This document shows, piece after piece, positions 43,471-55,770 of a stretch of 55,770 nucleotides of DNA. Position 1 is the stretch's first letter. Each line of letters starts with the position of its first letter. Source of the DNA: Candidatus Thorarchaeota archaeon (lineage in GTDB: Archaea; Asgardarchaeota; Thorarchaeia; Thorarchaeales; Thorarchaeaceae); the NCBI GenBank assembly GCA_020348985.1, contig CP070761.1:441980-497749 (forward strand), read 5' to 3'. The notes below the pieces were generated by a model that was not told the DNA's origin, searched no databases, and saw only the letters and a program-made list of their open reading frames with translations. The translations under genes and the position numbers were made by a program.

Positions 43471-43496
43471 TCGTGCCACGGTTGAGAATTGAACAC
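43471..43496 (-). repeat. Degenerate copy of tRNA-Phe 3' end (att-like)
   Basis: TCGTGCCACGGTTGAGAATTGAACAC vs TGGTGCCGCGGGTGTGATTTGAACAC at 43979 (21/26, no gaps). Confidence 0.8.
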
Positions 43497-43560
43497 GATA
43501 GCAATAATCGCGTCAAATGTGATAAGCGGGAATGGCGAATCCAGCCATTCCCAATTGACT

Positions 43561-43899
43561 TCAGACACGACTCAGATAATCCTCTCGGGGAGGACTGAAA
43601 GCCTCGATAAGAACTGCAGGGTCATCTCCTAGAGCATCAAAGCTGTGAGGCGCTTTTGGAGGTATCCAGAATGAAGTCCCTGTCTCAATCTCTCTGGATT
43701 CATTATTGATGTGCAGAATGCCTTTCCCCTCCAATAGGTAGCCCATTTGCTCATGAGGATGTGAATGAGGAGGTGTTGGAATTCCTGGCTCGATGGTTAG
43801 TTTCATCATCATAGCGTTTTCGCCAACAATGAGAATGACTCCGTGTCTTCCCTTTACGGTTTCAAGCTTAGGTGCTTCGTGAGCTTTCACAATGCGCAT
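43561..43899 (-). CDS. Cupin domain protein
   Basis: HSHPHEQMGY..EG, IPPKAPH, FSPPREDY; start MRIVK (the listed longer ORF runs into tRNA-Phe). Confidence 0.92.
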   Translation of the reverse strand: MRIVKAHEAPKLETVKGRHGVILIVGENAMMMKLTIEPGIPTPPHSHPHEQMGYLLEGKGILHINNESREIETGTSFWIPPKAPHSFDALGDDPAVLIEAFSPPREDYLSRV

Positions 43900-43978
43900 T
43901 ATAACCAAGTCCACATTATTTGAAGGGTCTATTGAGGCGTTTATTGAGTTTGGCCGTATAGAAACTAGAAGTTTGGAA

Positions 43979-44055
43979 TGGTGCCGCGGGTGTGATTTGA
44001 ACACACGACAACACGGTCTTCAGCCGTGCGATCTCCCTGGCTAATCTACCGCGGC
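43979..44055 (-). tRNA. tRNA-Phe(GAA)
   Basis: CACGG-CT-GAA-GA-CCGTG, GCCGCGG acceptor, encoded CCA. Confidence 0.95.
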
Positions 44056-44112: not shown

Positions 44113-44631
44113 CTACTTAATCTTGTAATTCATGAAGCTCGCGATGACCGCTGAGAGGATGGCGGCAATATTGACTGCAAGCGGATAGATGAAGAGAGAA
44201 TCAATGAACGCAAGAGTCGCCAACCATGACGGCACGTTTGTGGATTCAGCCACACCAAACGGCACAAAGTAAATTGCAAAGAAGACGCACGTCAGCAGCC
44301 CAACGCCCGCAAAAGCTGGCATATCTTCAGAAGATCTCGCAAACGAGGAGAGCTTCGAAATCCAATTCGATTTGGCTCTCTGACGTCTTCTGATCTTCTT
44401 TCTCGAGACTATGAATGACCAACGATACATTGCCTCTGCAATTATGACGTACGCTCCACCAAGGACCGCAGTGGCACCAAGAGCAACGATAAACTGAAGC
44501 TCAGCACTCAGAACTTGGACGTAGGTCTGTGCATGCCAAAGGATTGGTATCTGAGCGAACCCTGCCAACCCAACGAAGATGAGAATGAGTCCGGGTTTGC
44601 TGCCGCGTCTCCACCATACTGCTAGGCTCAT
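44113..44631 (-). CDS. Hypothetical membrane protein
   Basis: Four hydrophobic segments with a basic loop. Confidence 0.7.
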   Translation of the reverse strand: MSLAVWWRRGSKPGLILIFVGLAGFAQIPILWHAQTYVQVLSAELQFIVALGATAVLGGAYVIIAEAMYRWSFIVSRKKIRRRQRAKSNWISKLSSFARSSEDMPAFAGVGLLTCVFFAIYFVPFGVAESTNVPSWLATLAFIDSLFIYPLAVNIAAILSAVIASFMNYKIK

Positions 44632-44703
44632 GGAAATCCACCTGGTCTGTAGAATGGTCCAGCAGACCTGAGGTTCGCACTTTAAGGTTTTGGAACTGGT
44701 TAG

Positions 44704-45282
44704 CTATGCTGGCCTCTTTTTAGCCTCAATGCGAAACCAATACCTGTTCCCTTCTGCTCTGACCAGGTCAAACCCGATTCGAGAGAGAACGAGAGACACA
44801 GTATCGAGTGTCTGATCTTGCTTACCAGCCACACCGTACCCGGTTTTGGAAACCTCACCATCAGGAAATTCAAAAACAGTCTCCATTATGTGTCGATTTT
44901 CAGTAGTTGTGATGTTGCTTGCCATGATTGAAAGAAGGCCGTCCTTCTTCATGGTTCGATGAGCCTGCCTCAATAGTCTCTCCTTGTCTTCCCAGTTACT
45001 GACATAACCCAGCATAAACCAAGCTGTCACCGTTTCGAAAGATGCGTCCTTAATACAGAGATACCTGCCATCTGCTAGTACCCATTGCGATTCAGGTGCA
45101 TGTATCTGAGCCTCCAATATCTCATTTGGATTCAAATCGACTGCACAAACTCTAGAACCTTCAATACGGGACACAAGCCCTTCACATCCGCCTCCAATGT
45201 CTAGAATTGGGTCATTACCTGGTATCCTTTCAAGTCTTATCTCTTGAACTGGAGTTCGAAACACTGAGCGCTTGCTGACCAA
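44704..45282 (-). CDS. Class I SAM-dependent methyltransferase
   Basis: ILDIGGGCEG, AVD, ADGR.L...DASFE, MKKDG. Confidence 0.85.
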   Translation of the reverse strand: MVSKRSVFRTPVQEIRLERIPGNDPILDIGGGCEGLVSRIEGSRVCAVDLNPNEILEAQIHAPESQWVLADGRYLCIKDASFETVTAWFMLGYVSNWEDKERLLRQAHRTMKKDGLLSIMASNITTTENRHIMETVFEFPDGEVSKTGYGVAGKQDQTLDTVSLVLSRIGFDLVRAEGNRYWFRIEAKKRPA

Positions 45283-45413
45283 CTTGGTTGTATGCCCCCT
45301 TTGTCATCTGATTATTGTGACACGAGCACATATGATTGTCGAGGAGATCAGGAGATCGATGTCATGATAGGATATATCTATGCTAATACTGTGAACCGCC
45401 TGACTGCCGTGAG

Positions 45414-46502
45414 TTGGTGAGACTTGTGCCAAGAATCGTTTCGGTTTCCACTGAGATCGCGCGGACGAGGCTCGTCAACGAGGATTTTGTCACAACATAT
45501 GGACGAGAACCTGTTGTAAGGTTCCACGTAATTGTGCGCGTCAAATCGGATACCGGAATCATTGGGATTGGCGAAGCATGTCCTCTTCCGTTCACTCCTG
45601 ACGATGACCATGAACGAATTAGGCATGCAATTGACAATGACCTGGGTCCACTTCTGGTCGGAGAAGACCCATTTGATCTTGGAGCAATCCATGGAAAGAT
45701 GAACCGCATTCCTTTGCCTGGAAAGACTGCACTCGCAGGAATTGACATTGCAGTCTATGACTTGATCGGCAAGACCCGTGGGGTTCCAGTCTATGAAATC
45801 CTTGGAGGAACGAAACGTGAAAGCGTTGAAGTTGCGTCTGCTCTGGGAATTGGTTCCCTTTCATTCATTGTGAAGAGCGCTGAAGAGAAACTGGCTAAGG
45901 GAGCAAAGGCAATCAAAATCAAAGTGGGTATCGACATTGACAAGGATATAGAGACCATGAAGGCTGTCAGGGATGCTGTAGGTGACTTGATCAAGATTCG
46001 CGCAGATGCGAACACGGGCTATTCCCTCAAGGCAGCCACAAGGGTGTTAAGAGCGGCTGAACGGATAGGACTCGAGTATCTCGAGCAGCCTCTTGCGGCG
46101 AATGATTATGACGGACTTGCTCATCTTCGGAAGAACAGCAGTGTTCCAATAATGGCTGACGAGTCGCTGCAGACGGTAGAGGATGCAAGAAGACTCATTG
46201 AGCATGAGGCAGTAGACCTCTTCGGTCTGAAGCTCATCAAGCATGGCGGAATATATCCCACTAGGACAATATCCACTTTGGCAGAAGAGAATGGGATTGA
46301 ATGCGTTCTGATTAGTCCTTGGGAGACACAAATTGGTGTGGCCGCAGGAGTTCATCTCATAATCTCATCTTCAAACTTCAATCATCCTCATGAGACCGGA
46401 ATTCGTGAGCTGAAGAATGACCCAATACAGGGTCTCAAAGAAGAAATGGGAATCATCCAACCACCTACTGGTTCAGGACTTGGAGTATCTTTCAAGAATT
46501 AA
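45414..46502 (+). CDS. Enolase-superfamily (MR/MLE) enzyme, dipeptide epimerase-like
   Basis: GIGEA, GIDIAVYDLIGK, KIKVG, DAN, EQP, ADES, K..K.GG. Confidence 0.85.
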   Translation: MVRLVPRIVSVSTEIARTRLVNEDFVTTYGREPVVRFHVIVRVKSDTGIIGIGEACPLPFTPDDDHERIRHAIDNDLGPLLVGEDPFDLGAIHGKMNRIPLPGKTALAGIDIAVYDLIGKTRGVPVYEILGGTKRESVEVASALGIGSLSFIVKSAEEKLAKGAKAIKIKVGIDIDKDIETMKAVRDAVGDLIKIRADANTGYSLKAATRVLRAAERIGLEYLEQPLAANDYDGLAHLRKNSSVPIMADESLQTVEDARRLIEHEAVDLFGLKLIKHGGIYPTRTISTLAEENGIECVLISPWETQIGVAAGVHLIISSSNFNHPHETGIRELKNDPIQGLKEEMGIIQPPTGSGLGVSFKN

Positions 46503-46558
46503 GGAACAGATTGACAAGTCTTATGTCAGACTAACACACTCTAGCCGATGAGAAGTAG

Positions 46559-47110
46559 ATGGACGAGTTCAGACACGAAACGACTCTGAAAGATGGCACT
46601 CTCGTCCTAATTCGCTTATATGAACCAGGAGACTCCGAAGAAATCTATGCGGGGCTCAGGAGGCTTTCCGATAGCACGACATATCTCAGATTCATGACAT
46701 GTTTGAACAGTCTCCCCAACGAACGCTTGCTCGAACTCAAGAAGATTGATCATGATCATCACCTGGCCATCTGTGCATTCGACTTGAGTAAAGACCCAAT
46801 GGTTGGTATGGGCATTGCACGCTATGTAAGAATGGAAAGTGACTCTCTGATTGCAGAAGCAGCAGTTACCATTCTTGATGAGTATCAAAACAAAGGTCTT
46901 GGAACTGAACTCCTCTACATTCTGACGAAGCTCGCTAGTCAAAAAGGCGTGACTCATCTGAGGGCGCACGTCTTATCAACCAACAAACCGATACTAGCTA
47001 TTGCCAGAAAAGTTGGAAGTAAGATCAGTCACTACGAAGGCCAAGTTCTTCAGGTTGATTGGCCAGTAGATGAGGCCTTGGAAACGTTCATCCGCGCAAG
47101 AGGAAGCTGA
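46559..47110 (+). CDS. GNAT acetyltransferase
   Basis: TLKDG..V.IR, AEAAVTILDEYQNKGLG, VL.TN. Confidence 0.88.
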   Translation: MDEFRHETTLKDGTLVLIRLYEPGDSEEIYAGLRRLSDSTTYLRFMTCLNSLPNERLLELKKIDHDHHLAICAFDLSKDPMVGMGIARYVRMESDSLIAEAAVTILDEYQNKGLGTELLYILTKLASQKGVTHLRAHVLSTNKPILAIARKVGSKISHYEGQVLQVDWPVDEALETFIRARGS

Positions 47111-47117
47111 ATAGACC

Positions 47118-47774
47118 ATGACTCAGGATGAACCTATTGCCACAGAAACACAAACCGTCTATTGTGGAATTCACGCAAGGTATCATGGTAGAGATGCGAG
47201 ATGGTTTGCAACGATTTCTTTTGCGACTATGCTGATGGCTTACATAGCAATGGCTGGTTCTTCTATCAGTTACTTAGGCCTTACCTTCGACATTGGCACA
47301 TTGATAGGTCTAGGTCCATTTGTCCTCACAGAATCGATGATCATGATTCCGATTCACTTTCTCGTCTCGATGCTCTTCTTTGCGGGAGGAATCGAATGGT
47401 ATGTTCTGTGCAGACACTGCCCCTGCTATGAGCACTCGGGAAAGGAACATGGAAACGACAAGAGATTCTACTGTCTTGCCAACTGGGGAAGTCCCAAGCT
47501 GTTCAAGTACGATCCATCTCCAGTCAGCCGCGCAGGCCAAGCAATCTTCTTGATATGGGGGATTGGCTACGCGTTCTTGTTTCCACTAATCTACCTCTGG
47601 GACCGTCTTGACTGGCTCCTTGCGTACTTGATTGTCACCTTCGCATTCTTGGCCACACTGCGGCATTGGGCCTGCTCGAGTTGCCCCAACTTCGGATGTC
47701 CCCTGAACCATGTCCCCAGTGAGAACAGAGAGGAGTTCATGAAGAAGCTTGAGTCCGGAGAAATCTACACATAA
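47118..47774 (+). CDS. Cys-motif membrane protein, unknown function
   Basis: Four TM with LCRHCPCY and CSSCPNFGCPLN motifs. Confidence 0.75.
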   Translation: MTQDEPIATETQTVYCGIHARYHGRDARWFATISFATMLMAYIAMAGSSISYLGLTFDIGTLIGLGPFVLTESMIMIPIHFLVSMLFFAGGIEWYVLCRHCPCYEHSGKEHGNDKRFYCLANWGSPKLFKYDPSPVSRAGQAIFLIWGIGYAFLFPLIYLWDRLDWLLAYLIVTFAFLATLRHWACSSCPNFGCPLNHVPSENREEFMKKLESGEIYT

Positions 47775-47841
47775 CACGACGAGTTTCGCGCCTATGCTTG
47801 CTCAGTAACTACGACTTAACTATCAGCACTTCAGGTGAGGC

Positions 47842-48981
47842 ATGATTTCAATGGAGATCAGTCTTCTTCCACCTGAGAACATTGTAAGTGTTGCAAGAGA
47901 GATTGAGTCAGTTACAGACCAAACGTTTGTCGAATCCGACTTTCTCCTACGTGCTTTCAAAGTAGTGAACACGTCATCAGAGAGGGTTCAAATCAATTGC
48001 TACAGATTCAACTTCAAAGCAAAGGGGAAGGTTCAGAATGTGGTTCTTCATCCCGAAGATGCAGTTGCCAAGAGTGCATCGGGAGTCTCTAGTATCATAG
48101 GACAGCTCACAAGAGAGGGACCCAAACGAAAGAAGATTCAGCAACGAGACAACTTCCATCGCCTAATGGGGACAGATGCTTTCTGGGTGGCCAATCAAGT
48201 ATCCTCAAGCAACATACTCAGTCCACAACAAGAGACTGGATTACTGAGTAAACGCTTCAGAGTTCTTGCGGACGCTCCCATCGATGAGCTATTGATTGAA
48301 GTCGACTATATGGAGAACGGCAAGCCTGGACAGACATCAGTCACAATACCAGTCATGAAGAAGGAAAAACGAGAGGACTACATATTTCCCGTGAAAGGAC
48401 AATGGCTTGTCACGTGGAATTGGGTTGGTCTTGATTCTCACAGAGAAGCGTACTCTCAGGAATTCGCCTTTGATCTTATCAAAATGGGCGAGGGTCCTTT
48501 AGAAGAAGGTGCAGAAACGCTAAACTCAGAGGATCCATGTTATGGTGAAGACATTCTTGCAATCGCAGATGGCCGTGTAACAAGCTGTTTTGATGGAATT
48601 CCCGACAATCCTGCGGTTGGCGTACATCTACCTGTAGAACAAATCAGAGAAATCATCGACACGTACGAGAGCTCTCTTCCAGCCGGGGCTGGGAATCACG
48701 TCGTTCTTCAACACAGCTCTGGGGAGTGCTCATTCTATGCACACATGATTCCCGGAAGTCTCATGGTGAAGGAAGGAGACAAAGTCAAGCAGGGACAGGT
48801 GATAGGTCGTGTGGGAAACTCTGGCAACTCCGATGGTCCACATCTTCACTTTCATCTAATGGACGGCCCTGATTACTTCACTTCGAGGGGTTTGCCGTGC
48901 CATTTCACCAATGTACGTAACCTATACGGGGAATCGTTAGAGATTGTGGACGTAGATAATTCGCCGGTTTGGGCGGAATAG
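47842..48981 (+). CDS. M23-family metallopeptidase
   Basis: H...Q.FAFD, GNHV, YAHM, V..GD.V..GQ.IG.VGNSGNS.GPHLHF. Confidence 0.9.
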   Translation: MISMEISLLPPENIVSVAREIESVTDQTFVESDFLLRAFKVVNTSSERVQINCYRFNFKAKGKVQNVVLHPEDAVAKSASGVSSIIGQLTREGPKRKKIQQRDNFHRLMGTDAFWVANQVSSSNILSPQQETGLLSKRFRVLADAPIDELLIEVDYMENGKPGQTSVTIPVMKKEKREDYIFPVKGQWLVTWNWVGLDSHREAYSQEFAFDLIKMGEGPLEEGAETLNSEDPCYGEDILAIADGRVTSCFDGIPDNPAVGVHLPVEQIREIIDTYESSLPAGAGNHVVLQHSSGECSFYAHMIPGSLMVKEGDKVKQGQVIGRVGNSGNSDGPHLHFHLMDGPDYFTSRGLPCHFTNVRNLYGESLEIVDVDNSPVWAE

Positions 48982-49128
48982 ACTAGATCCGATTTCGCAG
49001 TCTCCTTTCCCCCTCTCTGTCACACACAATCAAGGCAATTAAAATACCGGTGTGAAAGTTCGAATCGCTCCAGTAAACAGGAGTAGATTGAGATCTTCAG
49101 CATCTTCCATATTCTAGCGATTTGCGGA

Positions 49129-49704
49129 ATGCTCAGCCCAATCATCTACACAGTGATGTGGATTCTTGGAGGCATCTTGCAGGAAGATTACAGCCATGTT
49201 CGAGATGACGTCAGTTCTCTCCTTGCAGTAGATGCCCCCAACAAACAGCTCTTTGACAAGTTCCTCATCACTTCTAGCGTTCTGTTATTCGTTTTCTATA
49301 GTGGATTACACTGGGGTGTTAACAACGGAGAAGGATCAATAGTTGGCCCAGTTCTATTCTTGACCAGTTCAATCCTAGGAATTCTCGTTGCTCTCTTCTT
49401 CCCTCTTGATGCTGGCGGTGAGATTGTCACCACTCGAGGAAAGATGCATCTTGTTCTTGTAATGATAAGTGGGATATTGACAATTGCAGGGATGGTCGCT
49501 TTGTGGTTCCGCCTGGAGTCAGTAGCGGACTGGAGTGCTTTTGCTTCGTTCTCATTGATAACATCAATAGTGGCACTGATTCTTGTCGTATTCTCCGGGA
49601 TTTCCGTGAAAACCAACTTCATGGGTCTAGTTGAGAGAGTTGCCGTCAGTACCTACCAGGTATACTACTTCGTTCTAGCCTTGATGGTGTTCCTATTCAA
49701 TTAG
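49129..49704 (+). CDS. DUF998-like membrane protein
   Basis: YSHVRDDVSSL, FP.D, H, GL.ER pattern; multi-TM. Confidence 0.75.
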   Translation: MLSPIIYTVMWILGGILQEDYSHVRDDVSSLLAVDAPNKQLFDKFLITSSVLLFVFYSGLHWGVNNGEGSIVGPVLFLTSSILGILVALFFPLDAGGEIVTTRGKMHLVLVMISGILTIAGMVALWFRLESVADWSAFASFSLITSIVALILVVFSGISVKTNFMGLVERVAVSTYQVYYFVLALMVFLFN

Positions 49705-50143
49705 AATCAGTATGACTCGAAGTCTGGATGGACTCCTCAAGGCGCGGCAATAGCATTGAAGCAAGCAGGAAGCCGCTCAGAGAGAATGCTAGGCCCAGTG
49801 GTGCGGCAATGTACCGGAGTGCTAAATCAATGAATCCAATTATGAACGCATAGATGGAAGGAGCAATCGCTAGCGTGTACATAAGGATGGCCGGACCGAC
49901 TAGGTCTTCCAATTCTGCCTTTTTACTGAAGAAACGATAGACTAGGTAGACAAGTAGAATCTCAATAGGCATCAGAAACAGCATCACCCACGAAAGAAGA
50001 AACGGTCCTGTAGCTTCTGGGAACTCGGATTCAGGGATTATCATAATGATGAACGGCAGCACAATCGCCCAGCCAAGAAAACCAACCCCTATGATTCTGG
50101 CTTTCCGAAGAGGTGGCCCGCTATCATTCTCCAACGAATTCAC
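49697..50143 (-). CDS. Hypothetical membrane protein
   Basis: Four TM segments. Confidence 0.7.
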   Translation of the reverse strand: MNSLENDSGPPLRKARIIGVGFLGWAIVLPFIIMIIPESEFPEATGPFLLSWVMLFLMPIEILLVYLVYRFFSKKAELEDLVGPAILMYTLAIAPSIYAFIIGFIDLALRYIAAPLGLAFSLSGFLLASMLLPRLEESIQTSSHTDSN

Positions 50144-50228
50144 TCCACACCCTACTACTCATGGCTGCCTGTTCTTAAGAGCCTATTCTTGCACTTCAAG
50201 CGCTATCGTGCAGACGAAGAATGAGAAG

Positions 50229-50256
50229 TCCAGAGTCGAGCGAGATTTGGTCTCGC
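50229..50256 (-). repeat. tRNA-3'-end-like repeat, unit 5 (most eroded)
   Basis: TCC-A-GAGTCGA-GCGAG-ATTTGGT-CTCGC keeps the 5-bp T-stem/7-nt loop geometry of the other units. Confidence 0.55.
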
Positions 50257-50309
50257 AGCTTTCTCTTCAAAAGCCATTCAACTCCTGATGAGACTCATGT
50301 TGAATTTCG

Positions 50310-51068
50310 CTATTGTCCTCTTCTTCTGAAATGAAGAACCAATACTATCAAGAAGAGGACTGGTAAGCCAATGACCAAGGTGGAAATAATCCCTCCTAAA
50401 TCATCACTGATTGGACCTGCAAGTAGGGGGCCGATGTTGGTGCCATTCAATGTCTCCAAAACTGAAACTTCCATTAAGGATACCCTACGTTGAGTTTCAA
50501 TCCTGAGTACAATCCCTGTTTCTTGATCATAGTAGCGATTCATCTGGTTACCAACCGAATAGGAATTCTCGGTCATCCAGCAGCTTCGAGGTGAGGAAAG
50601 ACAGTCGAATTCAAGAGGATTGGTTGATGAGGCGTACGCATTCCTTTCGTACATTGAATTGATTGGCGTACTCTCATTGGTTTCTGGTGAAATCCAAAAT
50701 GCAGTCTTCTCACCTATCGGATATCCTTCAATCTTAGTGCCGTTTGAGTAATAGGCGTCTTGGATCTCGCAAGTGTCCTTGTCGATTATAAGTGTTCCAC
50801 CGCCAGGCACAATGTCAAACAATTCAGTTGTGGTATTGAAGAATAGTCCATGGGACTGCACTTCTATCTCAACCAAGCTCCCCTCGACAGTCGTTATCTC
50901 CCATCGTAATTCATGAGTTTCTCCGTTGGAATACTCTTGTTTGTATTGGGCGAATGATCCAATCCCAAGGAAACCAGGCATGCTTGTCTGATCTAGTGCA
51001 AGCTGATAAACCGGAAGAACAAGCGCAAAAGAGCAGACTAGCGCCAAGGAAAGTGAACGTATAGACAT
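50310..51068 (-). CDS. Secreted, C-terminally membrane-anchored hypothetical protein
   Basis: Signal peptide MSIRSLSLALV.., YDQETGIVL motif, NxT sequons, C-terminal TM + RRR. Confidence 0.75.
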   Translation of the reverse strand: MSIRSLSLALVCSFALVLPVYQLALDQTSMPGFLGIGSFAQYKQEYSNGETHELRWEITTVEGSLVEIEVQSHGLFFNTTTELFDIVPGGGTLIIDKDTCEIQDAYYSNGTKIEGYPIGEKTAFWISPETNESTPINSMYERNAYASSTNPLEFDCLSSPRSCWMTENSYSVGNQMNRYYDQETGIVLRIETQRRVSLMEVSVLETLNGTNIGPLLAGPISDDLGGIISTLVIGLPVLFLIVLVLHFRRRGQ

Positions 51069-51125
51069 CCTACTATCAGGATATACTAGATGAGAAGCGG
51101 AAAAAGAGTTTCGAGATTGTAAGAG

Positions 51126-51153
51126 TGGTGGGCCGGGAGCGGTTTGAACATGT
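51126..51153 (-). repeat. tRNA-3'-end-like repeat, unit 4
   Basis: TGG-T-GGGCCGG-GAGCG-GTTTGAA-C; no anticodon or D arm follows. Confidence 0.8.
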
Positions 51154-51348
51154 GACCCCCTTTCAGCCACTTCAATCTTGATTAACGCCCCGCGCAACAT
51201 TTGCCCAAGTTGCGGGACTCTACAACATCTTCAGGGCGCATCTGGCGAATTCGAGCAAGTTCTTGGCAGTGCTTTAGACGGTGAGACTGATACTCAAAGT
51301 TCTTTAACCAGAGATTGTGGACCGCTCCATTGAGGACTGTTAACAATC

Positions 51349-52629
51349 TTGTCAGAGGTCCACCGAGAACCAATTGAGACAATTGAGTCAAGTCCGAATC
51401 ACGAGGGAAACGTACTAACCGTACTTAATCTATCATTGGTTACATTCCTAGTGCTCCTTGGCTTGAGCATGGTGGCTCCAATCCTCCCCACCTACGCTGA
51501 GAGCTTTGAGGTTTCGTATACACTCGTTGGTTTTGTGGTTTCATCTTTTGCCGTGACAAGAATGATCCTAGACATGCCAGCAGGACTCCTCTCAAGAAGA
51601 TATGACAAGAAGAAGATCATGATATCCGGCCTGCTTCTAATAGTATCATCATCTTTTCTGGCTGGTTTCGCACCCAACTACCTAACCTTGGTGATTGCTC
51701 GGATGTTGGAAGGTGCTGGTTCGGCTCTGTACGTAACAACAGCCACAGTCTTCCTTGCTCAAATATCTGGAGAAGAGAAGAGGGGGCAGTGGATGAGCCT
51801 CTATATGGGAATGTTACTTCTTGGAGCCATCTTCGGACCCACTTTTGGTGGTATTATTGCCGATACCTATGATATTCGGGCCCCGTTCTTTGCCTATGCA
51901 ATCATTACAGGTCTGGGTGTGATTCCAACTTTGACCTTGCCTAGGGTGGTTAATACCGCAAGTGTGGCGCCATCTCTTAATCCGAAAGAAGTCCTGCACG
52001 ATATGCGGGTAGTCCTATCCAATCCCTCGTTTCTCTTTGTTACATTTGCAGTCTTCACGACGTTTTTCTTGCGAACAGGAGTGAGAACAACACTTGTGCC
52101 TCTGTTTGCTGCCAACAATCTTGGTTTGAACGCAAGCGCTATTGGCTGGGTTCTTACGGTTGGAGGAATAACAACCGCATTCACAATTGTGCCAATGGGA
52201 AGCATTTCTGATAGGATTGGCAGGAAGATACCTTTGGCGCTTTGTCTTGTCCTTACTGCAGTGACTACTCTACTGATTCCCTTTTCCATTGACCTATTGA
52301 CTTTGTCAGCTGTACTAGGGGTGTATGGGGCAGTCATTGGTCTATCAGGACCTAGTGCGGCCTATGTAACAGACCTATCGCCACAAGACAAGCTGGAAAT
52401 ATCCATGGGATTGTACCGAATGATCAGTGACTTCGGGTTTGTAGTTGGACCTCTCCTGCTTGGCTTCCTTGCAGACATAACCGCCACTCCTGTGGCTGGA
52501 GATCCGCACTCAGGTCTCATTGGCATGATACCCTTTGTAGTAGCTGCAGTTATCCTCGTTACTGCATTCATTGTACTTCTCAGAGCTGATGATCCTATTA
52601 GACGAAGGAATCAGGCTCCTATGATATGA
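51349..52629 (+). CDS. MFS transporter
   Basis: 12 TM, GLLSRRYDKK and GSISDRIGRK motif A. Confidence 0.93.
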   Translation: MSEVHREPIETIESSPNHEGNVLTVLNLSLVTFLVLLGLSMVAPILPTYAESFEVSYTLVGFVVSSFAVTRMILDMPAGLLSRRYDKKKIMISGLLLIVSSSFLAGFAPNYLTLVIARMLEGAGSALYVTTATVFLAQISGEEKRGQWMSLYMGMLLLGAIFGPTFGGIIADTYDIRAPFFAYAIITGLGVIPTLTLPRVVNTASVAPSLNPKEVLHDMRVVLSNPSFLFVTFAVFTTFFLRTGVRTTLVPLFAANNLGLNASAIGWVLTVGGITTAFTIVPMGSISDRIGRKIPLALCLVLTAVTTLLIPFSIDLLTLSAVLGVYGAVIGLSGPSAAYVTDLSPQDKLEISMGLYRMISDFGFVVGPLLLGFLADITATPVAGDPHSGLIGMIPFVVAAVILVTAFIVLLRADDPIRRRNQAPMI

Positions 52630-52656
52630 GCCTATCATGCCCTCAGGAAAAAGGAA

Positions 52657-52684
52657 TGGTGGGCCTACTGAGATAGAAACTCTC
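52657..52684 (-). repeat. tRNA-3'-end-like repeat, unit 3
   Basis: TGG-T-GGGCCTA-CTGAG-ATAGAAA-CTC. Confidence 0.7.
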
Positions 52685-52779
52685 ACCCTCCTCACTGTTT
52701 CTACGAATTACTCAATTGTTCTGGATGATGGTTTTTCACATAAGATAGTTTAATCTACAGTTCAAGAAGCTTGCTCTCG

Positions 52780-54096
52780 ATGTCATCTACAAAGATTGTT
52801 GTAATTGGTGCTGGAAGTCTATCTTTTGGTCTAGGAACTTGCGGAAGCATATTCAATTCTGATATTCTAGAAGGAGCTCACGTGACTCTCCACGATATAA
52901 ACGCGGAGAATCTGGAATTGGCAAGAGAAGCATGTCAAGCAAAGATCGATCACGACGATCTGAATTTCACGTTAGAATCTACAACCAAACGTGAAGAAGC
53001 TCTCAGGGGAGCAGACTTCGTAATCAACTCCATCGAAGTAGGACCAAGATTCTACTGGTGGGAGTTGGATATGAAGATCCCATGGAAGTATGGAAGCTCT
53101 CAAGTTTTCGGAGAGAACGGGGGGCCTGGAGGGATGTTCCATTCACTGCGCGTAGTTCCACCTATACTTGACATTTGTAGAGATATCAACCAAATCTGTC
53201 CCGATGCTATTCTCATAAACTACTCCAATCCTATGTCTAGAATCCTCTTGTCAATCAAAAGAGAATATCCTGATCTAAGGGTAGTTGGTCTTTGTCACGA
53301 AATTGCTCTCGCTCAGGATCTTCTTCCGAAGATTCTGAAAGTCCCTTTTGATAAGATGAACTTGTGGTGTGGAGGATTGAATCACATGGGGGCGATAATC
53401 AAAGCAAGACATAAGGACGACAATGAGGATCTAATCCCTGAAATTCAACGAAGAGGCGTCAAATTCCTGAATAGATGGAGATGGAGCCTAAAATCAAGAT
53501 TGGTGTTTCCCGTTGATTTGACAATCTACATTCTGGAGAAATTCGGATTCATGCCGTATACTACTGATTCTCATTATGGTGAGTATATTGGATGGGCAAG
53601 AGAAGTTGTCAATATGAGAGGTATCAAGAATTTCTACTCTGTCTATCGAAAATACCTTTGGTTCAAAGGACTGCAGATTCGCTTCAGTATTAGAAGGAAA
53701 AGAGGACACAAATTGGTGAAACCCGATCATGAACGAGCAATTCCAATAATAGAAGGCATCCTTTCAGATAGCAATCATCATGAGTTGTCAGTGAATCTTC
53801 CAAATGATGGTATAATCTCTAATCTTCCTAAAGATTCGATTATTGAGTGCCCAGCAATCGTCAATAAATCAGGAGTACAAGGGATAGCTCTTGGAGATTA
53901 TCCAGAACCACTTGTTGATCTACTTAGAGAAGAAATCGGTGTTCAAGATTTGGTTGTAAAAGCCATACTCAACAATTCTAGAGATTATGCCGTGCAAGCT
54001 CTTCAGGCAGATCCAAATTTCCCATGTAAACACCTCATCAATGCATTTCTTGATGAAATGCTAGAGCTTCAAAAAGAATGGGTTACTCTAGCATAG
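52780..54096 (+). CDS. Family 4 glycoside hydrolase (NAD+-dependent alpha-galactosidase/glucosidase)
   Basis: IGAGS, GADFVI, ENGGPGG, NYSNP, GLCH, GLNH. Confidence 0.92.
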   Translation: MSSTKIVVIGAGSLSFGLGTCGSIFNSDILEGAHVTLHDINAENLELAREACQAKIDHDDLNFTLESTTKREEALRGADFVINSIEVGPRFYWWELDMKIPWKYGSSQVFGENGGPGGMFHSLRVVPPILDICRDINQICPDAILINYSNPMSRILLSIKREYPDLRVVGLCHEIALAQDLLPKILKVPFDKMNLWCGGLNHMGAIIKARHKDDNEDLIPEIQRRGVKFLNRWRWSLKSRLVFPVDLTIYILEKFGFMPYTTDSHYGEYIGWAREVVNMRGIKNFYSVYRKYLWFKGLQIRFSIRRKRGHKLVKPDHERAIPIIEGILSDSNHHELSVNLPNDGIISNLPKDSIIECPAIVNKSGVQGIALGDYPEPLVDLLREEIGVQDLVVKAILNNSRDYAVQALQADPNFPCKHLINAFLDEMLELQKEWVTLA

Positions 54097-54123
54097 GAGA
54101 ATCATTGTTGAAATAGGGACAAA

Positions 54124-54151
54124 TGTTGGACCGGGCGAGATTCGAACTTGA
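54124..54151 (-). repeat. tRNA-3'-end-like repeat, unit 2
   Basis: TGT-T-GGACCGG-GCGAG-ATTCGAA-CTT. Confidence 0.85.
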
Positions 54152-54250
54152 GATCTCTTCTGTCTGAATGACCTATGAAACATTTGAACGAATGACTATT
54201 AACCGATTTAGGACTCTAGAACGTCTATCGACTATAGACGAGGGGCTTAC

Positions 54251-55678
54251 TTGAAGAGAAGACGCGAATTGCTCGTGACCACATTAGTTGTTCTCGCGGC
54301 TTTGCTGGCCTCTCTTCTGCTTTTCGTTTCACAGGGATTCTGGAATCAGCAAACCAATGACGCACCCGACACTATCATTCACAACGGCGAAATCATCACT
54401 ATGGAACAGTCGCCTGCACAAGTTCAGGCGCTAGCCATCCGGGGAGAGTCTATTCTCGCTATTGGTGATGAGAGTGACATCCTCGCGATGGGAGGTCCAA
54501 GCACACACTTCATCGACCTTGGAGGAAGGACACTTCTACCGGGATTCATTGACTCCCATTCTCATCATATCGGTGACCGGAACTATGTGAACCAATCGAC
54601 TCCAGAGGAAGCGATTGAAAGTGTGCTGAGCTCTGGATGGACCAGTATTTCCGAGCTGTTTGTAAATCAAGACCGCTTGGATGAGCTGAGAACGCTAGAC
54701 GAAGAGGAAAACCTTCGCATTCGTGTTAATGCCTATCTTCCTTTGAGCTGGCAATTCGAAAGATTCGGAGATTGGTATGAAGCCTATCAACCCGGACAGG
54801 AATTCAGTTCGAAGCTGCGGATAGCGGGAGTGAAGATCTTCATGGACAGCTGGTTTACTGACTGGTTACATTATTTCGACCAGATCGAACTGGAGTCGCT
54901 AGTGCAAGAAGCTCATGACGCAGGCTATCAGATTGCCATTCATAGTGTCGTAGAGAATGCTACAGATATAGTCCTGGACACACTTGAAGCGGTGTTGGGA
55001 GGGGAATCGAACCAGCTCTATCGTCACCGCATCGAACATCTTGTCTTGCTCAGAGACGACCAAATCGATAGAATGGGCAGTCTTGGGATTATTGCCTCGT
55101 TCCAACTTCCTTGGTTCAATTCAGATTGGATAGAAGCTCAGTCTTTTCCATATCTACAAGATTATTCGCATCTTGCAGGAAGATGGCGAGATATTGTTCA
55201 AGCAGGAATACCCTCACTCGGGAGTACTGACTTTCCTTGGAATCTGGGAGAAGTAAGGTCTGCTATGAGAACTCTCTCCATGGCCGTCACTAGGATCGGT
55301 CTACAAGAGCTTACTCCCCTCGATTGGATGTTGAATCAAACACTCAGCGTCGAGCAAGCCCTACGGATTATGACAATAGATGCTGCCTATGGTACGTTTC
55401 AGGAAGACGTGAAAGGAAGCATCAGGGTTGGGAAGCTCGCAGATTTCGTTGTTCTCTCTGATAATCCACTGACAGTTCCTGAAAGCAGTCTGGCTAACAT
55501 AGAGGTGCTAATGACAATAGTTGGAGGGGTCGCGGAATATACCGCCCCGGGACAGCAGTTTCTATCTACTGTCTACGTGGGCGCCAGCAGCCAAACAGTA
55601 GTAGGATCAGGCCAAATAATCAAGATGGAGATGGTGGACCGGACGAGATTTGAACTCGCTACTACTTGGACAGGTTAA
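54251..55678 (+). CDS. YtcJ-like amidohydrolase with N-terminal signal/TM
   Basis: PGFIDSHSH, KIFMD, IH, RIEH, GSTDFP, GSI.VGKLADFVVL. Confidence 0.9.
   Translation: MKRRRELLVTTLVVLAALLASLLLFVSQGFWNQQTNDAPDTIIHNGEIITMEQSPAQVQALAIRGESILAIGDESDILAMGGPSTHFIDLGGRTLLPGFIDSHSHHIGDRNYVNQSTPEEAIESVLSSGWTSISELFVNQDRLDELRTLDEEENLRIRVNAYLPLSWQFERFGDWYEAYQPGQEFSSKLRIAGVKIFMDSWFTDWLHYFDQIELESLVQEAHDAGYQIAIHSVVENATDIVLDTLEAVLGGESNQLYRHRIEHLVLLRDDQIDRMGSLGIIASFQLPWFNSDWIEAQSFPYLQDYSHLAGRWRDIVQAGIPSLGSTDFPWNLGEVRSAMRTLSMAVTRIGLQELTPLDWMLNQTLSVEQALRIMTIDAAYGTFQEDVKGSIRVGKLADFVVLSDNPLTVPESSLANIEVLMTIVGGVAEYTAPGQQFLSTVYVGASSQTVVGSGQIIKMEMVDRTRFELATTWTG
55632..55659 (-). repeat. tRNA-3'-end-like repeat, unit 1 (best preserved)
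   Basis: TGG-T-GGACCGG-ACGAG-ATTTGAA-CTCGC = GCGAGTTCAAATCTCGTCCGGTCCACCA on the minus strand; the rest of a tRNA is absent. Confidence 0.88.
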
Positions 55679-55770
55679 GATCCAGATCTAAGCCAGTTCT
55701 TGGGATTTCGTCGAATCCGATTTCGAGCTTGGTTCGGATACGTGTCAAGGCAGATCTTAAGAAAACGAGC

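What the first reader, a model, noticed from the sequence alone, without database searches (positions are those of the whole stretch)
50229..55659. Integron-like array of single-gene cassettes separated by tRNA 3'-end repeats, with no integrase in the window
Seen: five co-oriented ~28-nt repeats at 50229, 51126, 52657, 54124 and 55632. Each is the minus-strand T-arm + acceptor 3' strand + NCCA of a tRNA (consensus about GCGAG-TTCRAAT-CTCGC-CCGGYCC-A-CCA), and none has an anticodon or D arm. Exactly one unrelated accessory gene lies between each pair (secreted protein, MFS, GH4, amidohydrolase), in mixed orientation. The repeats are broadly best preserved at the right and most eroded at the left. 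Established: tyrosine integrases insert at tRNA 3' ends and leave such duplications, but normally around large elements that carry their own integrase. Inference: serial capture of small non-autonomous gene cassettes at one tRNA lying just beyond the right edge, pushing older cassettes leftward, i.e. an integron-like system that uses tRNA fragments instead of attC. The CCGGTCC strand of units 1-2 has T at position 70, the G3:U70 tRNA-Ala signature.
Basis: partly seen in the sequence, partly recalled or inferred. Interest (0 to 1): 0.92.

Follow-up and report, generated by a model that had tools for sequence, protein, structure and literature searches.

The report
tRNA-fragment-bounded gene cassette array, Thorarchaeota
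The last 10 kb of this Asgard (Thor-) archaeon contig is a variable island behind the alanine tRNA(GGC) gene, built of one-gene modules that are each bounded by a spare copy of the tRNA's 3' end and that related archaea carry in other orders, with no recombinase gene found, so it works like an integron built on another principle.

Summary
The repeats are real. By a profile of this genome's own tRNA 3' ends, units at 55632, 54124 and 51126 score 37, 27 and 20 bits (no shuffle reached 20). 52657 is marginal (8 bits). 50229 keeps only a T-arm-like hairpin. One gene lies between each pair.

The genome is a Thorarchaeota MAG and the window is a whole contig. In relatives the same place, between tRNA-Ala(GGC) and a methyltransferase gene next to tRNA-Phe, holds 89 bp, 1.1 kb, about 6.7 kb or about 34 kb. 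The longer islands are cut by up to 13 tRNA-Ala fragments.

The amidohydrolase module (54124-55659) recurs in over 20 genomes and metagenome contigs. It is bracketed by fragments in at least 15 of the 21 metagenome contigs, has at least 9 different neighbours on each side, and its homology stops at the fragments. Near-identical contigs differ by exactly one module.

No tyrosine, SSV-type or serine recombinase, Cas1, IS110 or HUH enzyme is in the MAG or near any array examined.

Serial capture at a tRNA is supported. Membership in integrons is not. The enzyme is unknown. The tRNA itself is not assembled here, and unit 51126 looks Pro(CGG)-derived. This scan noted the same phenomenon earlier in other Thorarchaeota genomes.

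The parts
55632..55659 (-). U5: tRNA-Ala 3' fragment (T arm, acceptor 3' strand, A, CCA)
   Evidence: 37.1 bits. It is 27/28 identical to the genome's tRNA-Ala 3' ends. The upstream sequence is not tRNA-like.
54124..54151 (-). U4: tRNA-Ala 3' fragment with CCA changed to ACA. The 5' T-stem strand is not complementary.
   Evidence: 27.2 bits. It is the left limit of the amidohydrolase homology block in 7 other loci.
54163..54189 (-). U4': decayed second fragment carried inside the amidohydrolase module, just before its conserved AT-rich promoter-like region
   Evidence: It aligns with an intact fragment in G007 and with equally decayed copies in G049 and G007.
52657..52684 (-). U3: eroded fragment (TAGGCCC-A-CCA)
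   Evidence: 8.3 bits. Shuffles give 0.03 such hits per region. It lies 28 nt after the MFS stop codon.
51126..51153 (-). U2: tRNA 3' fragment from the T loop to CCA, acceptor CCGGCCC, closer to tRNA-Pro(CGG) than to tRNA-Ala
   Evidence: 20.4 bits. It matches the tRNA-Pro(CGG) 3' end of relatives 21/24.
50229..50256 (-). U1: T-arm-like hairpin only. Doubtful unit.
   Evidence: 0.9 bits. The hairpin matches the Ala T arm 15/17, and there is no acceptor strand or CCA.
54251..55678 (+). Amidohydrolase gene (module U4..U5). Its last codons run through the complement of U5.
   Evidence: Pfam Amidohydro_3, E 7e-50. The homology block in 20 other loci is bounded at 54115-54184 and 55629-55657.
52771..54096 (+). 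Family 4 glycoside hydrolase gene (module U3..U4)
   Evidence: Pfam Glyco_hydro_4 and Glyco_hydro_4C. The homologue in G024 lies on a different contig from the MFS homologue, and the block covers 52779-54084 only.
51349..52629 (+). MFS transporter gene (module U2..U3)
   Evidence: Pfam MFS_1, E 5e-60. Gene-sized homology blocks occur in 8 relatives.
50310..51200 (-). Predicted secreted or membrane-anchored protein (module U1..U2). The real start is probably the Met before the signal peptide, near 51068.
   Evidence: ORF and translation. No Pfam match.
45283..50228 (.). Older part of the same island without recognisable fragments. It holds an enolase-superfamily enzyme, a GNAT, an unknown protein, an M23 peptidase, DUF998 and a 148-aa membrane protein.
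   Evidence: It lies between the conserved methyltransferase gene and U1. This space is 89 bp in G021. The M23 and 148-aa families recur inside arrays of other genomes.
44113..45282 (-). Conserved chromosomal flank of the island (172-aa protein and methyltransferase), next to tRNA-Phe at 43979-44055
   Evidence: Homologues lie between tRNA-Phe and tRNA-Ala(GGC) in G001, G021, G016 and G020.
55660..55770 (.). Start of a further module. The contig ends here.
   Evidence: It has no similarity to tRNA, and 100 N follow in the MAG. Homology with other amidohydrolase loci stops at U5.

Best explanation
Window 45283-55770 is the variable island that Thorarchaeota keep directly behind the 3' end of tRNA-Ala(GGC). 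It consists of stacked modules of mostly one gene. Each module has its own promoter region and ends in a copy of the tRNA's 3' part, about 23-45 nt, sometimes with the tRNA's intron. The copies are the products of recombination inside tRNA-derived sequence. A circular or flanked module carrying such a piece recombines with the tRNA, or with any earlier copy, so the tRNA stays whole and one more partial copy is left behind. The same reaction between two copies removes or swaps modules.

Shown: the hot spot, the empty site, the module boundaries at the fragments, module gain and loss between near-identical genomes, and the lack of any known recombinase gene in cis.

Inferred: the enzyme. I favour an unidentified site-specific recombinase acting in trans (about 45%). 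Next comes host homologous recombination on the short conserved repeats (about 30%), and the remainder goes to the other rivals below and to mechanisms not considered. Fragments carrying foreign T-arm alleles leave only about 10-14 nt of perfect identity with the local tRNA. Fragment 5' ends pile up in the T loop and the anticodon loop, as at classical tRNA att sites.
For: 1. Hot spot with an empty site. The order DEAD helicase, PUA protein, tRNA-Ala(GGC), [island], methyltransferase, 172-aa gene, tRNA-Phe is conserved. The island measures 89 bp in G021, 1.1 kb (one GH114 gene) in G001 of the same genus, about 6.7 kb in G016, at least 10.4 kb here and about 34 kb in G020.
2. Arrays are family-wide. 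All 61 genomes match the Ala 3' pattern, many with 10-20 copies, against none for the reversed pattern in all but one genome, which has a single match. Co-oriented fragments, headed by the intact tRNA where the contig reaches it, occur in G016, G020, G070, G049, G024, G007, G066, G056, G065, G067, G072 and G005.
3. Module structure. In 65 intervals the median length is 1238 bp, and 40 hold one ORF.
4. Modularity of the amidohydrolase unit. It is bracketed by fragments in at least 15 of 21 metagenome contigs, and it recurs in the arrays of several MAGs. Its homology to the window stops at U4 and U5 in 20 loci, with at least 9 different left and 10 different right neighbours.
5. Recent events. 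L078 and L079 are 99.9% identical over 2787 nt and part inside the tRNA piece. L081/L082 and L083 differ by exactly one module plus one fragment.
6. The same habit occurs at other tRNAs of this MAG. A perfect 34-nt repeat lies around one gene at tRNA-His, a perfect 43-nt repeat lies around one gene at C1:1795320, and there are fragments behind tRNA-Ser, tRNA-Phe and tRNA-Gly.
7. No recombinase in cis. PF00589, PF16795, PF00239, PF01867, PF01548 and PF01797 are all absent from the MAG. The array-rich genomes G007, G049, G067, G072 and G066 lack PF00589. The 13 tyrosine-recombinase loci of relatives that I examined have no tRNA or fragment within 8 kb.
8. Fragment 5' ends are enriched in the T loop (positions 53-57) and at the anticodon loop or intron.
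Against: - The intact tRNA-Ala(GGC) is not in this MAG (86% complete). At its expected place on another contig there is only a decayed 5' relic. The link of this particular array to a live tRNA therefore rests on synteny.
- Fragment 5' ends are spread over many positions rather than forming one sharp site.
- Some arrays carry only the local tRNA allele (G049 CCCAG, G066 TTCACAT), which would also fit homology-dependent exchange or gene conversion.
- Many different anchor genes would need many site specificities.
- No circular or empty-site junction was seen in public data for this locus.
- A Pro-type fragment (U2) inside an Ala island is not explained by simple serial insertion at one tRNA.
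Confidence: 0.55

Rival explanations
1. The exchange runs by host homologous recombination with no dedicated enzyme. The tRNA-derived repeats of 25-75 nt are the only sequences shared between arrays of different lineages. Imported DNA flanked by two repeats replaces or adds modules by double crossover. Circles looped out between two repeats re-enter by single crossover. Only 3'-terminal pieces persist, because other insertions would break the tRNA.
For: No recombinase of six families is present in the MAG or near the arrays. Fragment 5' ends are broadly distributed. Some arrays hold only the local allele of the T arm or T loop. Breakpoints between near-identical contigs fall anywhere within the shared tRNA piece. 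Earlier scan notes report the same architecture behind rRNA, RNase P RNA and a protein gene, which are other highly conserved sequences (not tested here).
Against: Arrays in G020 and G070 mix T-arm alleles (CTCGC, CTCAC, CTCGG, CTCGA). Perfect identity with the local tRNA is then often only about 10-14 nt, which is short for RadA-type recombination. Fragment ends are enriched in the two loops, as at integrase att sites. Direct repeats this close together would also be lost quickly by the same process.
Confidence: 0.3
2. The units are leftovers of ordinary large integrase-bearing islands or proviruses that inserted one after another at the tRNA and were then whittled down by deletion to one gene each.
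For: This is the classical origin of partial tRNA repeats in islands (tycheposon preprint 10.1101/2020.12.28.424599; Alteromonas, PMC4898812). G020 and G005 do carry a 10-12-kb element with a TraG-like ATPase next to the tRNA.
Against: Perfect 34- and 43-nt repeats surround single genes, so these insertions are recent and cannot have been whittled down. 40 of 65 intervals hold exactly one ORF. The same one-gene module recurs with the same limits in more than 20 contexts. No integrase remnants appear in any array ORF scanned.
Confidence: 0.08
3. The tRNA-like pieces are kept for a function of their own, such as transcription terminators or insulators, RNA processing signals, or 3' halves of split tRNA genes, and are not recombination scars.
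For: A T-rich tract follows CCA in most copies. Thorarchaeal tRNA-Ala(GGC) genes carry up to three introns, at the same loops where fragments begin.
Against: Copies decay with distance from the tRNA and lose CCA or T-stem pairing. No 5' halves or complementary leader sequences were found. Fragments lie on either strand relative to the neighbouring genes. An empty site exists in G021.
Confidence: 0.04
4. Chance matches or assembly chimeras formed at short repeats.
For: U1 alone is within chance by the profile.
Against: No shuffle reached the scores of U2, U4 or U5. Independent short contigs from other runs and studies bridge U1, U2, U3 and U5. The same architecture occurs in dozens of independent assemblies.
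Confidence: 0.01

Closest known systems
tRNA-targeted integrative elements with tandem accretion, including tycheposons of Prochlorococcus (bioRxiv 10.1101/2020.12.28.424599; sublocation classes of Williams 2002, from my own knowledge)
   Same: Insertion occurs in the 3' part of a tRNA gene. Partial tRNA copies act as boundaries. Newer units sit next to the tRNA and older ones further in. tRNA-Ala(GGC) is among the tycheposon targets. Cargo consists of accessory metabolic and defence genes.
   Different: Those elements carry their own tyrosine or serine recombinase next to the tRNA and are several kb long. Here the units are about 1.2 kb with one gene, and no recombinase is found in the arrays or, in many genomes, anywhere.
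Additive flexible genomic islands at tRNA and tmRNA genes (Alteromonas; PMC4898812)
   Same: [quoted passage not shown]
   Different: They are bacterial. The repeats are occasional rather than bounding nearly every gene, and the mechanism there is attributed to illegitimate or site-directed recombination without a defined array grammar. Here there are up to 13 fragments in 25 kb.
Integrons, including sedentary chromosomal arrays and integrase-less attC clusters (own knowledge)
   Same: Arrays of mostly single-ORF cassettes, each ending in a recombination site. Cassettes are reshuffled among genomes. One docking site lies at the head of the array.
   Different: There is no IntI and no attC, and the site is a tRNA 3' end. 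Cassette genes show no common orientation and have their own promoter regions, and there is no common Pc promoter.
Non-autonomous att-flanked elements mobilised in trans (CIMEs of streptococcal ICEs; own knowledge)
   Same: The DNA is bounded by att repeats, has no integrase of its own, and is thought to use a recombinase supplied from elsewhere.
   Different: CIMEs are decay products that coexist with a related ICE supplying the integrase. No such helper was found here.
Casposons (own knowledge)
   Same: Archaeal elements that insert at tRNA 3' ends, sometimes in tandem.
   Different: They need Cas1 and have terminal inverted repeats and 14-15-bp target duplications. Cas1 is absent from this MAG, and the repeats here are 23-45 nt or longer with no inverted ends.

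Membership tests
Integron | intI tyrosine recombinase gene next to the docking site | tested here: not met
   No PF00589 match in the MAG. None lies near the arrays of relatives.
Integron | attC sites (imperfect palindromes recognised as folded single strands) at cassette ends | tested here: not met
   The boundaries are tRNA 3' ends. Many lack the 5' T-stem strand, so they do not form even the T-arm hairpin.
Integron | Mostly promoterless, co-oriented cassettes read from a common promoter | tested here: not met
   Orientation is 52 opposite to 49 same. A conserved AT-rich upstream region travels with the amidohydrolase module.
Integron | Array of small, mostly single-ORF cassettes that are exchanged as units | tested here: met
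   Median length is 1238 bp, and 40 of 65 intervals hold one ORF. The amidohydrolase module occurs in more than 20 contexts with fixed limits.
tRNA-integrating genomic island or integrative element (tyrosine integrase type) | Direct repeat of the tRNA 3' part at the far end of the inserted DNA, with the tRNA kept intact | tested here: met
   Perfect 34- and 43-nt repeats occur in this MAG. Arrays in relatives are headed by the intact tRNA-Ala(GGC).
tRNA-integrating genomic island or integrative element (tyrosine integrase type) | Element-encoded integrase beside an att site | tested here: not met
tRNA-integrating genomic island or integrative element (tyrosine integrase type) | Empty site in some relatives at the same tRNA | tested here: met
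   In G021, 89 bp separate tRNA-Ala(GGC) from the methyltransferase gene.
tRNA-integrating genomic island or integrative element (tyrosine integrase type) | Intact target tRNA at the head of this particular island | tested here: inconclusive
   The contig ends 111 nt after U5. The MAG has no tRNA-Ala(GGC), and there is a 5' relic on the flank contig.
Casposon | Cas1 casposase, terminal inverted repeats and a 14-15-bp target duplication | tested here: not met
   No PF01867 match. The repeats are 23-45 nt or longer, and no inverted ends were seen.
Split or trans-spliced tRNA genes | Separate 5' and 3' halves with complementary leader sequences that form a bulge-helix-bulge | tested here: not met
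   No 5' half of tRNA-Ala(GGC) exists apart from one decayed relic. Fragments lose CCA and T-stem pairing.

The most novel reading that the evidence does not exclude
Thorarchaeota possess a general gene-capture platform that needs no cis-encoded integrase. The 3' ends of conserved genes serve as docking sites where one-gene modules are added, removed and traded between lineages. The anchors shown here are the tRNA genes for Ala, His, Ser, Phe, Gly and Pro. Earlier scan notes add rRNA and RNase P RNA genes. The reaction would be carried out either by a recombinase family not yet recognised or by an unusually permissive host recombination system. A further possibility is that the same events swap tRNA 3' halves and seed or remove the multiple introns of these tRNA genes, whose positions (D loop, 37/38, 53/54) coincide with where fragments begin.
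Probability: 0.35. Interest if true: 0.85.

Novelty: new variant of a known kind. Interest (0 to 1): 0.68.

Why it matters
Asgard archaea are the closest known relatives of eukaryotes and have large, gene-rich genomes with much imported DNA. How they take up and sort new genes is poorly understood.

This locus, with its many relatives, shows a concrete and very regular route. One-gene modules for transport, sugar and amide metabolism, surface proteins and defence nucleases dock behind a tRNA gene and are exchanged at tRNA-derived joints.

If a new recombinase is behind it, that enzyme would be a new family with a short, well-defined target. If host recombination alone does it, the arrays show how conserved RNA genes can act as universal landing pads for gene flow between diverged lineages.

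The arrays also explain why Thorarchaeota MAGs break at tRNA genes and why their tRNA sets look incomplete.

Tried and rejected
- Rfam at E up to 10 on 49500-55770 gave no partial tRNA hit, only noise. Short fragments are below that model's reach, so I used a weight matrix instead.
- Public reads: only short Logan contigs at about 8x were available. There was no joint across a module and no circle junction. Single contigs part from the window exactly at the CCA ends of U4 (run X4) and U5 (run X1), but their extent is unknown. I do not count this as evidence for or against mobility.
- The first metagenome scan with the single amidohydrolase protein found nothing. The scan with an alignment worked.
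- Candidate integrases in the 10-kb element next to the tRNA in G020. The 420-aa protein beside the distal fragment has no Pfam, PHROG or PDB match and only one relative in 5.8 billion proteins, so it is an orphan and not a widespread enzyme. The 904-aa protein abutting the tRNA also has no match.
- tRNA-primed reverse transcription would put genes convergent with the fragment's CCA end, as three of the four in the window are. I rejected it because orientation across arrays is random (52:49) and many fragments keep the intron.
- Tyrosine recombinases of relatives as helpers: 13 loci were examined with up to 8 kb of flank on each side, and none lies near a tRNA or fragment.
- A single sharp crossover position: fragment 5' ends are enriched in the loops but spread out, so this test did not separate site-specific from homologous recombination.
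- Extending the contig: the window is a whole contig bounded by N spacers.

Full report
**What the window is.**
- The window is one entire contig of a metagenome-assembled genome. It sits at C1:441980-497749 in a concatenation whose contigs are joined by 100 N.
- The MAG is 3.16 Mb, 48% G+C, 86% complete and 5% contaminated.
- Its tRNA genes all encode CCA and many carry introns.
- The nearest public records with the same genes are labelled Candidatus Thorarchaeota, which are Asgard archaea.
- The contig cannot be extended, because it ends 111 nt to the right of the last repeat.

**The observation.**
- I built a 28-nt weight matrix (T arm, acceptor 3' strand, discriminator, CCA) from the 33 CCA-ending tRNA genes that ARAGORN finds in this genome.
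- On the minus strand the five units score 37.1 (55632), 27.2 (54124), 8.3 (52657), 20.4 (51126) and 0.9 bits (50229).
- In 500 Markov shuffles of the region nothing reached 20 bits, and hits of 8 bits or more appeared 0.03 times per shuffle.
- In the whole genome only 53 positions on both strands reach 12 bits, and most are true tRNA genes.
- U5 is 27/28 identical to the 3' end of the genome's tRNA-Ala genes. It has the same CTCGT T-stem allele as the tRNA-Ala(GGC) of relative G016.
- U4 is 24/28, with CCA mutated to ACA.
- U3 is marginal but sits in the expected gap and orientation.
- U1 keeps only a T-arm-like hairpin (15/17) and nothing of the acceptor end, so I treat it as doubtful.
- U2 has the acceptor strand CCGGCCC. 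It matches the 3' end of tRNA-Pro(CGG) of relatives (21/24) slightly better than tRNA-Ala (19/24).
- None of the units continues into an anticodon or D arm.
- Exactly one gene lies in each interval: a predicted secreted or membrane protein with no Pfam match, an MFS transporter, a family 4 glycoside hydrolase and an Amidohydro_3 enzyme. One is on the minus strand and three on the plus strand.
- Short contigs from independent public runs bridge U1, U2, U3 and U5.

**Where the island sits.**
- Relatives of the same family share the gene order DEAD-box helicase, PUA protein, small ribosomal-like protein, tRNA-Ala(GGC), variable island, methyltransferase, 172-aa protein, tRNA-Phe.
- In the window the methyltransferase (44704-45282), the 172-aa gene (44113-44631) and tRNA-Phe (43979-44055) are present in that order. 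Everything from 45283 to the contig end occupies the island's place.
- The island is 89 bp in G021 (an empty site) and 1.1 kb with one GH114 gene in G001 of the same genus.
- It is about 6.7 kb in G016, at least 10.4 kb here, and about 34 kb in G020.
- In G020, at least 13 co-oriented tRNA-Ala fragments follow the intact tRNA after a 10-kb element.
- In this MAG, however, no tRNA-Ala(GGC) is assembled.
- The conserved upstream flank lies on another contig (C1:2183437-2192801). At the place where relatives have the tRNA, that contig holds only a decayed 5' relic (GGGCAGGTGAATCAGCCGGGT, 17/21). A beta-helix protein gene and the contig end follow.
- Whether a live tRNA heads this island is therefore open.

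**A family-wide architecture.**
- A 24-nt pattern for the tRNA-Ala 3' end, allowing three mismatches, hits all 61 family genomes searched. Many have 10-20 hits where three tRNA-Ala genes are expected. The reversed control pattern hits nothing, apart from a single match in one genome.
- Fetching the clusters shows rows of co-oriented fragments 0.3-4.6 kb apart in at least twelve genomes, headed by tRNA-Ala(GGC) wherever the contig reaches it.
- Several MAG contigs start or stop exactly at the tRNA, as expected if the repeats break assemblies.
- Over 65 intervals the median is 1238 bp, and 40 contain a single ORF of 80 aa or more. Gene orientation relative to the fragments is random (52 opposite, 49 same).
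- Cargo is accessory.
  - Here it is transport, sugar and amide hydrolysis, and surface proteins.
  - In G020 it is NucS-like and HNH nucleases, two Schlafen/AlbA_2 proteins, AbiV, a UvrD helicase, a PLD nuclease, a deaminase and a beta-lactamase-fold protein.
- The same habit is seen at other tRNAs of this very MAG.
  - A perfect 34-nt repeat surrounds one beta-helix protein gene behind tRNA-His.
  - A perfect 43-nt repeat surrounds one membrane-protein gene at C1:1795320.
  - There is a fragment 3.7 kb behind tRNA-Ser(GCT).
  - Inside the window, a cupin gene lies between tRNA-Phe and a Phe-type fragment (43471-43498).
  - Also inside the window, one ORF lies between tRNA-Gly(TCC) and a Gly-type fragment (28891-28918).

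**The intervals are exchangeable modules.**
- Each of the window's genes has homologues in relatives, and the DNA similarity is confined to that gene's interval.
- The amidohydrolase unit is the best documented.
  - An alignment-based scan of metagenome contigs returned 21 loci. In at least 15 of them the gene is bracketed by two minus-strand tRNA-Ala fragments, one about 100 nt before its start and one at its stop codon.
  - BLASTN blocks against the window begin at 54115-54184 and end at 55629-55657 in 20 loci. None runs on into the GH4 gene or past U5.
  - The neighbours differ, with at least nine different families or genes on the left and ten on the right. In some contigs the unit is the first one next to the intact tRNA.
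  - A decayed inner fragment (U4', about 54163-54189) and a conserved AT-rich upstream region travel with the unit in three genera.
- There are recent events.
  - Contigs L078 and L079 are 99.9% identical over 2787 nt and diverge inside the tRNA-derived piece. One holds the intact, intron-bearing tRNA and the other an intron-less fragment that starts in the anticodon loop.
  - Contigs L081/L082 and L083 (93-97% identical) differ by exactly one 770-nt module plus one fragment in the middle of the array.
- The order in an array is therefore not a simple record of age.

**Anatomy of the joints.**
- The fragments end at CCA and are followed by a T-rich tract.
- Their 5' ends vary. Many begin within the T loop or at the junction of T stem and T loop (positions 53-57). 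Others begin in the variable region. A sizeable class begins in the anticodon loop and includes, or lacks, the canonical intron.
- Intron-bearing and intron-less fragments occur in one array, and so do different T-arm alleles. Modules therefore bring tRNA pieces from different lineages.
- In two arrays all copies carry the rare local allele.
- In relatives, tRNA-Ala(GGC) itself has up to three introns, in the D loop, at 37/38 and at 53/54. These are the same loops where fragments begin.

**The missing enzyme.**
- The MAG has no match to tyrosine recombinases (PF00589), SSV-type integrases (PF16795), serine recombinases (PF00239), Cas1 (PF01867), IS110 DEDD transposases (PF01548) or Y1 HUH transposases (PF01797). 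The control genomes respond to each of these searches.
- In the family, only 16 of 41 genomes have any PF00589 match.
- The array-rich genomes G007, G049, G067, G072 and G066 have none.
- The 13 recombinase loci that I fetched have no tRNA or fragment within 8 kb.
- No ORF scanned in the arrays resembles a recombinase.

**How it most likely works.**
- Shown: a hot spot at the 3' end of tRNA-Ala(GGC), modules bounded by tRNA-derived copies, and gain, loss and exchange of modules with breakpoints inside those copies.
- Inferred: a module carrying a tRNA 3' piece recombines with the tRNA or an existing copy. This regenerates a whole tRNA and leaves one more partial copy. Recombination between two copies loops modules out again.
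- For the catalyst I favour an unrecognised site-specific recombinase supplied in trans (about 45%).
  - Mixed T-arm alleles leave only about 10-14 nt of perfect identity.
  - The fragment ends concentrate in the two loops that classical tRNA-targeting integrases use.
- Host homologous recombination on the short repeats is a serious rival (about 30%).
  - It is supported by the total lack of recombinase genes, by the spread of fragment ends and by allele-uniform arrays.
  - According to earlier notes of this scan, which I did not test, the same architecture also occurs behind rRNA, RNase P RNA and a protein gene in other Thorarchaeota.
- Decay of ordinary large islands is unlikely, because perfect repeats enclose single genes and the same one-gene unit recurs with fixed limits.
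- A function of the fragments as RNAs or signals is unlikely, because they erode and an empty site exists.

**Comparison with what is known.**
- Partial tRNA repeats that mark successive insertions are well known.
  - They are described for tycheposons and genomic islands of Prochlorococcus, where tRNA-Ala(GGC) is one of the targets.
  - They are also described for additive flexible genomic islands of Alteromonas.
- What differs here is the grain and the regularity: about 1.2-kb, mostly one-gene units, with up to 13 fragments in 25 kb. The absence of any integrase in cis, and in many whole genomes, also differs, as does the setting in Asgard archaea with multi-intron tRNA genes.
- It works like an integron in that it has a docking site and an array of exchangeable single-gene cassettes. 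It fails the defining features of an integron: there is no IntI, no attC and no common orientation or promoter.
- I found no paper describing these arrays in Asgard archaea in the library searched.
- Earlier notes of this scan describe the same phenomenon on other Thorarchaeota DNA. This window is a further, independent instance. It adds the empty site, the metagenome-wide contexts of one module and the recent single-module differences.

**Verdict.**
- The parts that do not hold are the single-tRNA origin of all units, the strict age order and the presence of the intact tRNA in this assembly.
- I class it as a new variant of a known kind, tRNA-anchored additive islands, with an open and potentially new mechanism.

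Noticed in passing
window 43471-44055: A single cupin gene (about 43561-43896, minus strand) lies between tRNA-Phe (43979-44055) and a decayed Phe-type 3' fragment (43471-43498, 16.9 bits). This is a one-gene module behind a second tRNA in the same window.
   Followed up: partly
window 27909-28918: tRNA-Gly(TCC) at 27909-27983 is followed by one 314-aa ORF and a Gly-type 3' fragment at 28891-28918 (12.4 bits; 17/19 from the T loop to CCA).
   Followed up: no
G000 C1:248999-250507 (L025) and C1:1795292-1796251 (L026): A perfect 34-nt direct repeat of the tRNA-His 3' end encloses 1.4 kb with one NosD/beta-helix surface protein gene. A perfect 43-nt repeat of another tRNA-like 3' end encloses 0.9 kb with one membrane protein gene. 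Both look like recent insertions with no integrase.
   Followed up: partly
G000 C1:2191700-2192801 (L098:5000-6102): At the place where relatives have tRNA-Ala(GGC), after the conserved helicase-PUA flank, this MAG has only a decayed 5' relic (GGGCAGGTGAATCAGCCGGGT, 17/21). A beta-helix protein gene and the contig end follow. No tRNA-Ala(GGC) is assembled anywhere in the MAG.
   Followed up: partly
L011:6674-6870, L012:8371-8510, L040:5965-6110, L071:1250-1395 (relatives): tRNA-Ala(GGC) of Thorarchaeota carries up to three introns (D loop, 37/38 and T arm 53/54), and ARAGORN and Rfam miss several of these genes. The intron positions coincide with the places where array fragments begin. Fragments with and without the 37/38 intron coexist in one array, so module exchange may swap tRNA 3' halves and their introns.
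   Followed up: partly
L012 (G002:C34), L078, L069 (G072:C110): In some genomes an intact tRNA-Ala(GGC) lies in inverted orientation 3 kb from a long fragment, or two intact-looking copies face each other. This suggests inversions or incoming elements that bring their own tRNA copy.
   Followed up: no
window 55632-55678: The last 15 codons of the amidohydrolase ORF are read from the complement of tRNA fragment U5 (...MVDRTRFELATTWTG). Homologues in other genomes also end in W-W-T-G, encoded by TGGTGGACCGG.
   Followed up: partly
window 49378-49421: Depth in public contig sets jumps about 4- to 20-fold over this short stretch inside the DUF998 gene, with loose ends on both sides in all four runs. 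This suggests a short sequence shared with many other loci or organisms.
   Followed up: no
L100, L101, L099 (G016:C47, G049:C19, G016:C25): tRNA-Pro(CGG) genes of three relatives' contigs lie exactly at contig ends. This is consistent with repeat arrays behind that tRNA as well.
   Followed up: no
L021:5416-15288 (G020:C140), L074 (G005:C21), L012:6041-8362 (G002): A 10-12-kb element with a TraG-like ATPase, a beta-helix protein and a 770-900-aa protein of no known family abutting the tRNA's CCA end sits directly next to tRNA-Ala(GGC) in two genera. It has no recognisable integrase.
   Followed up: partly
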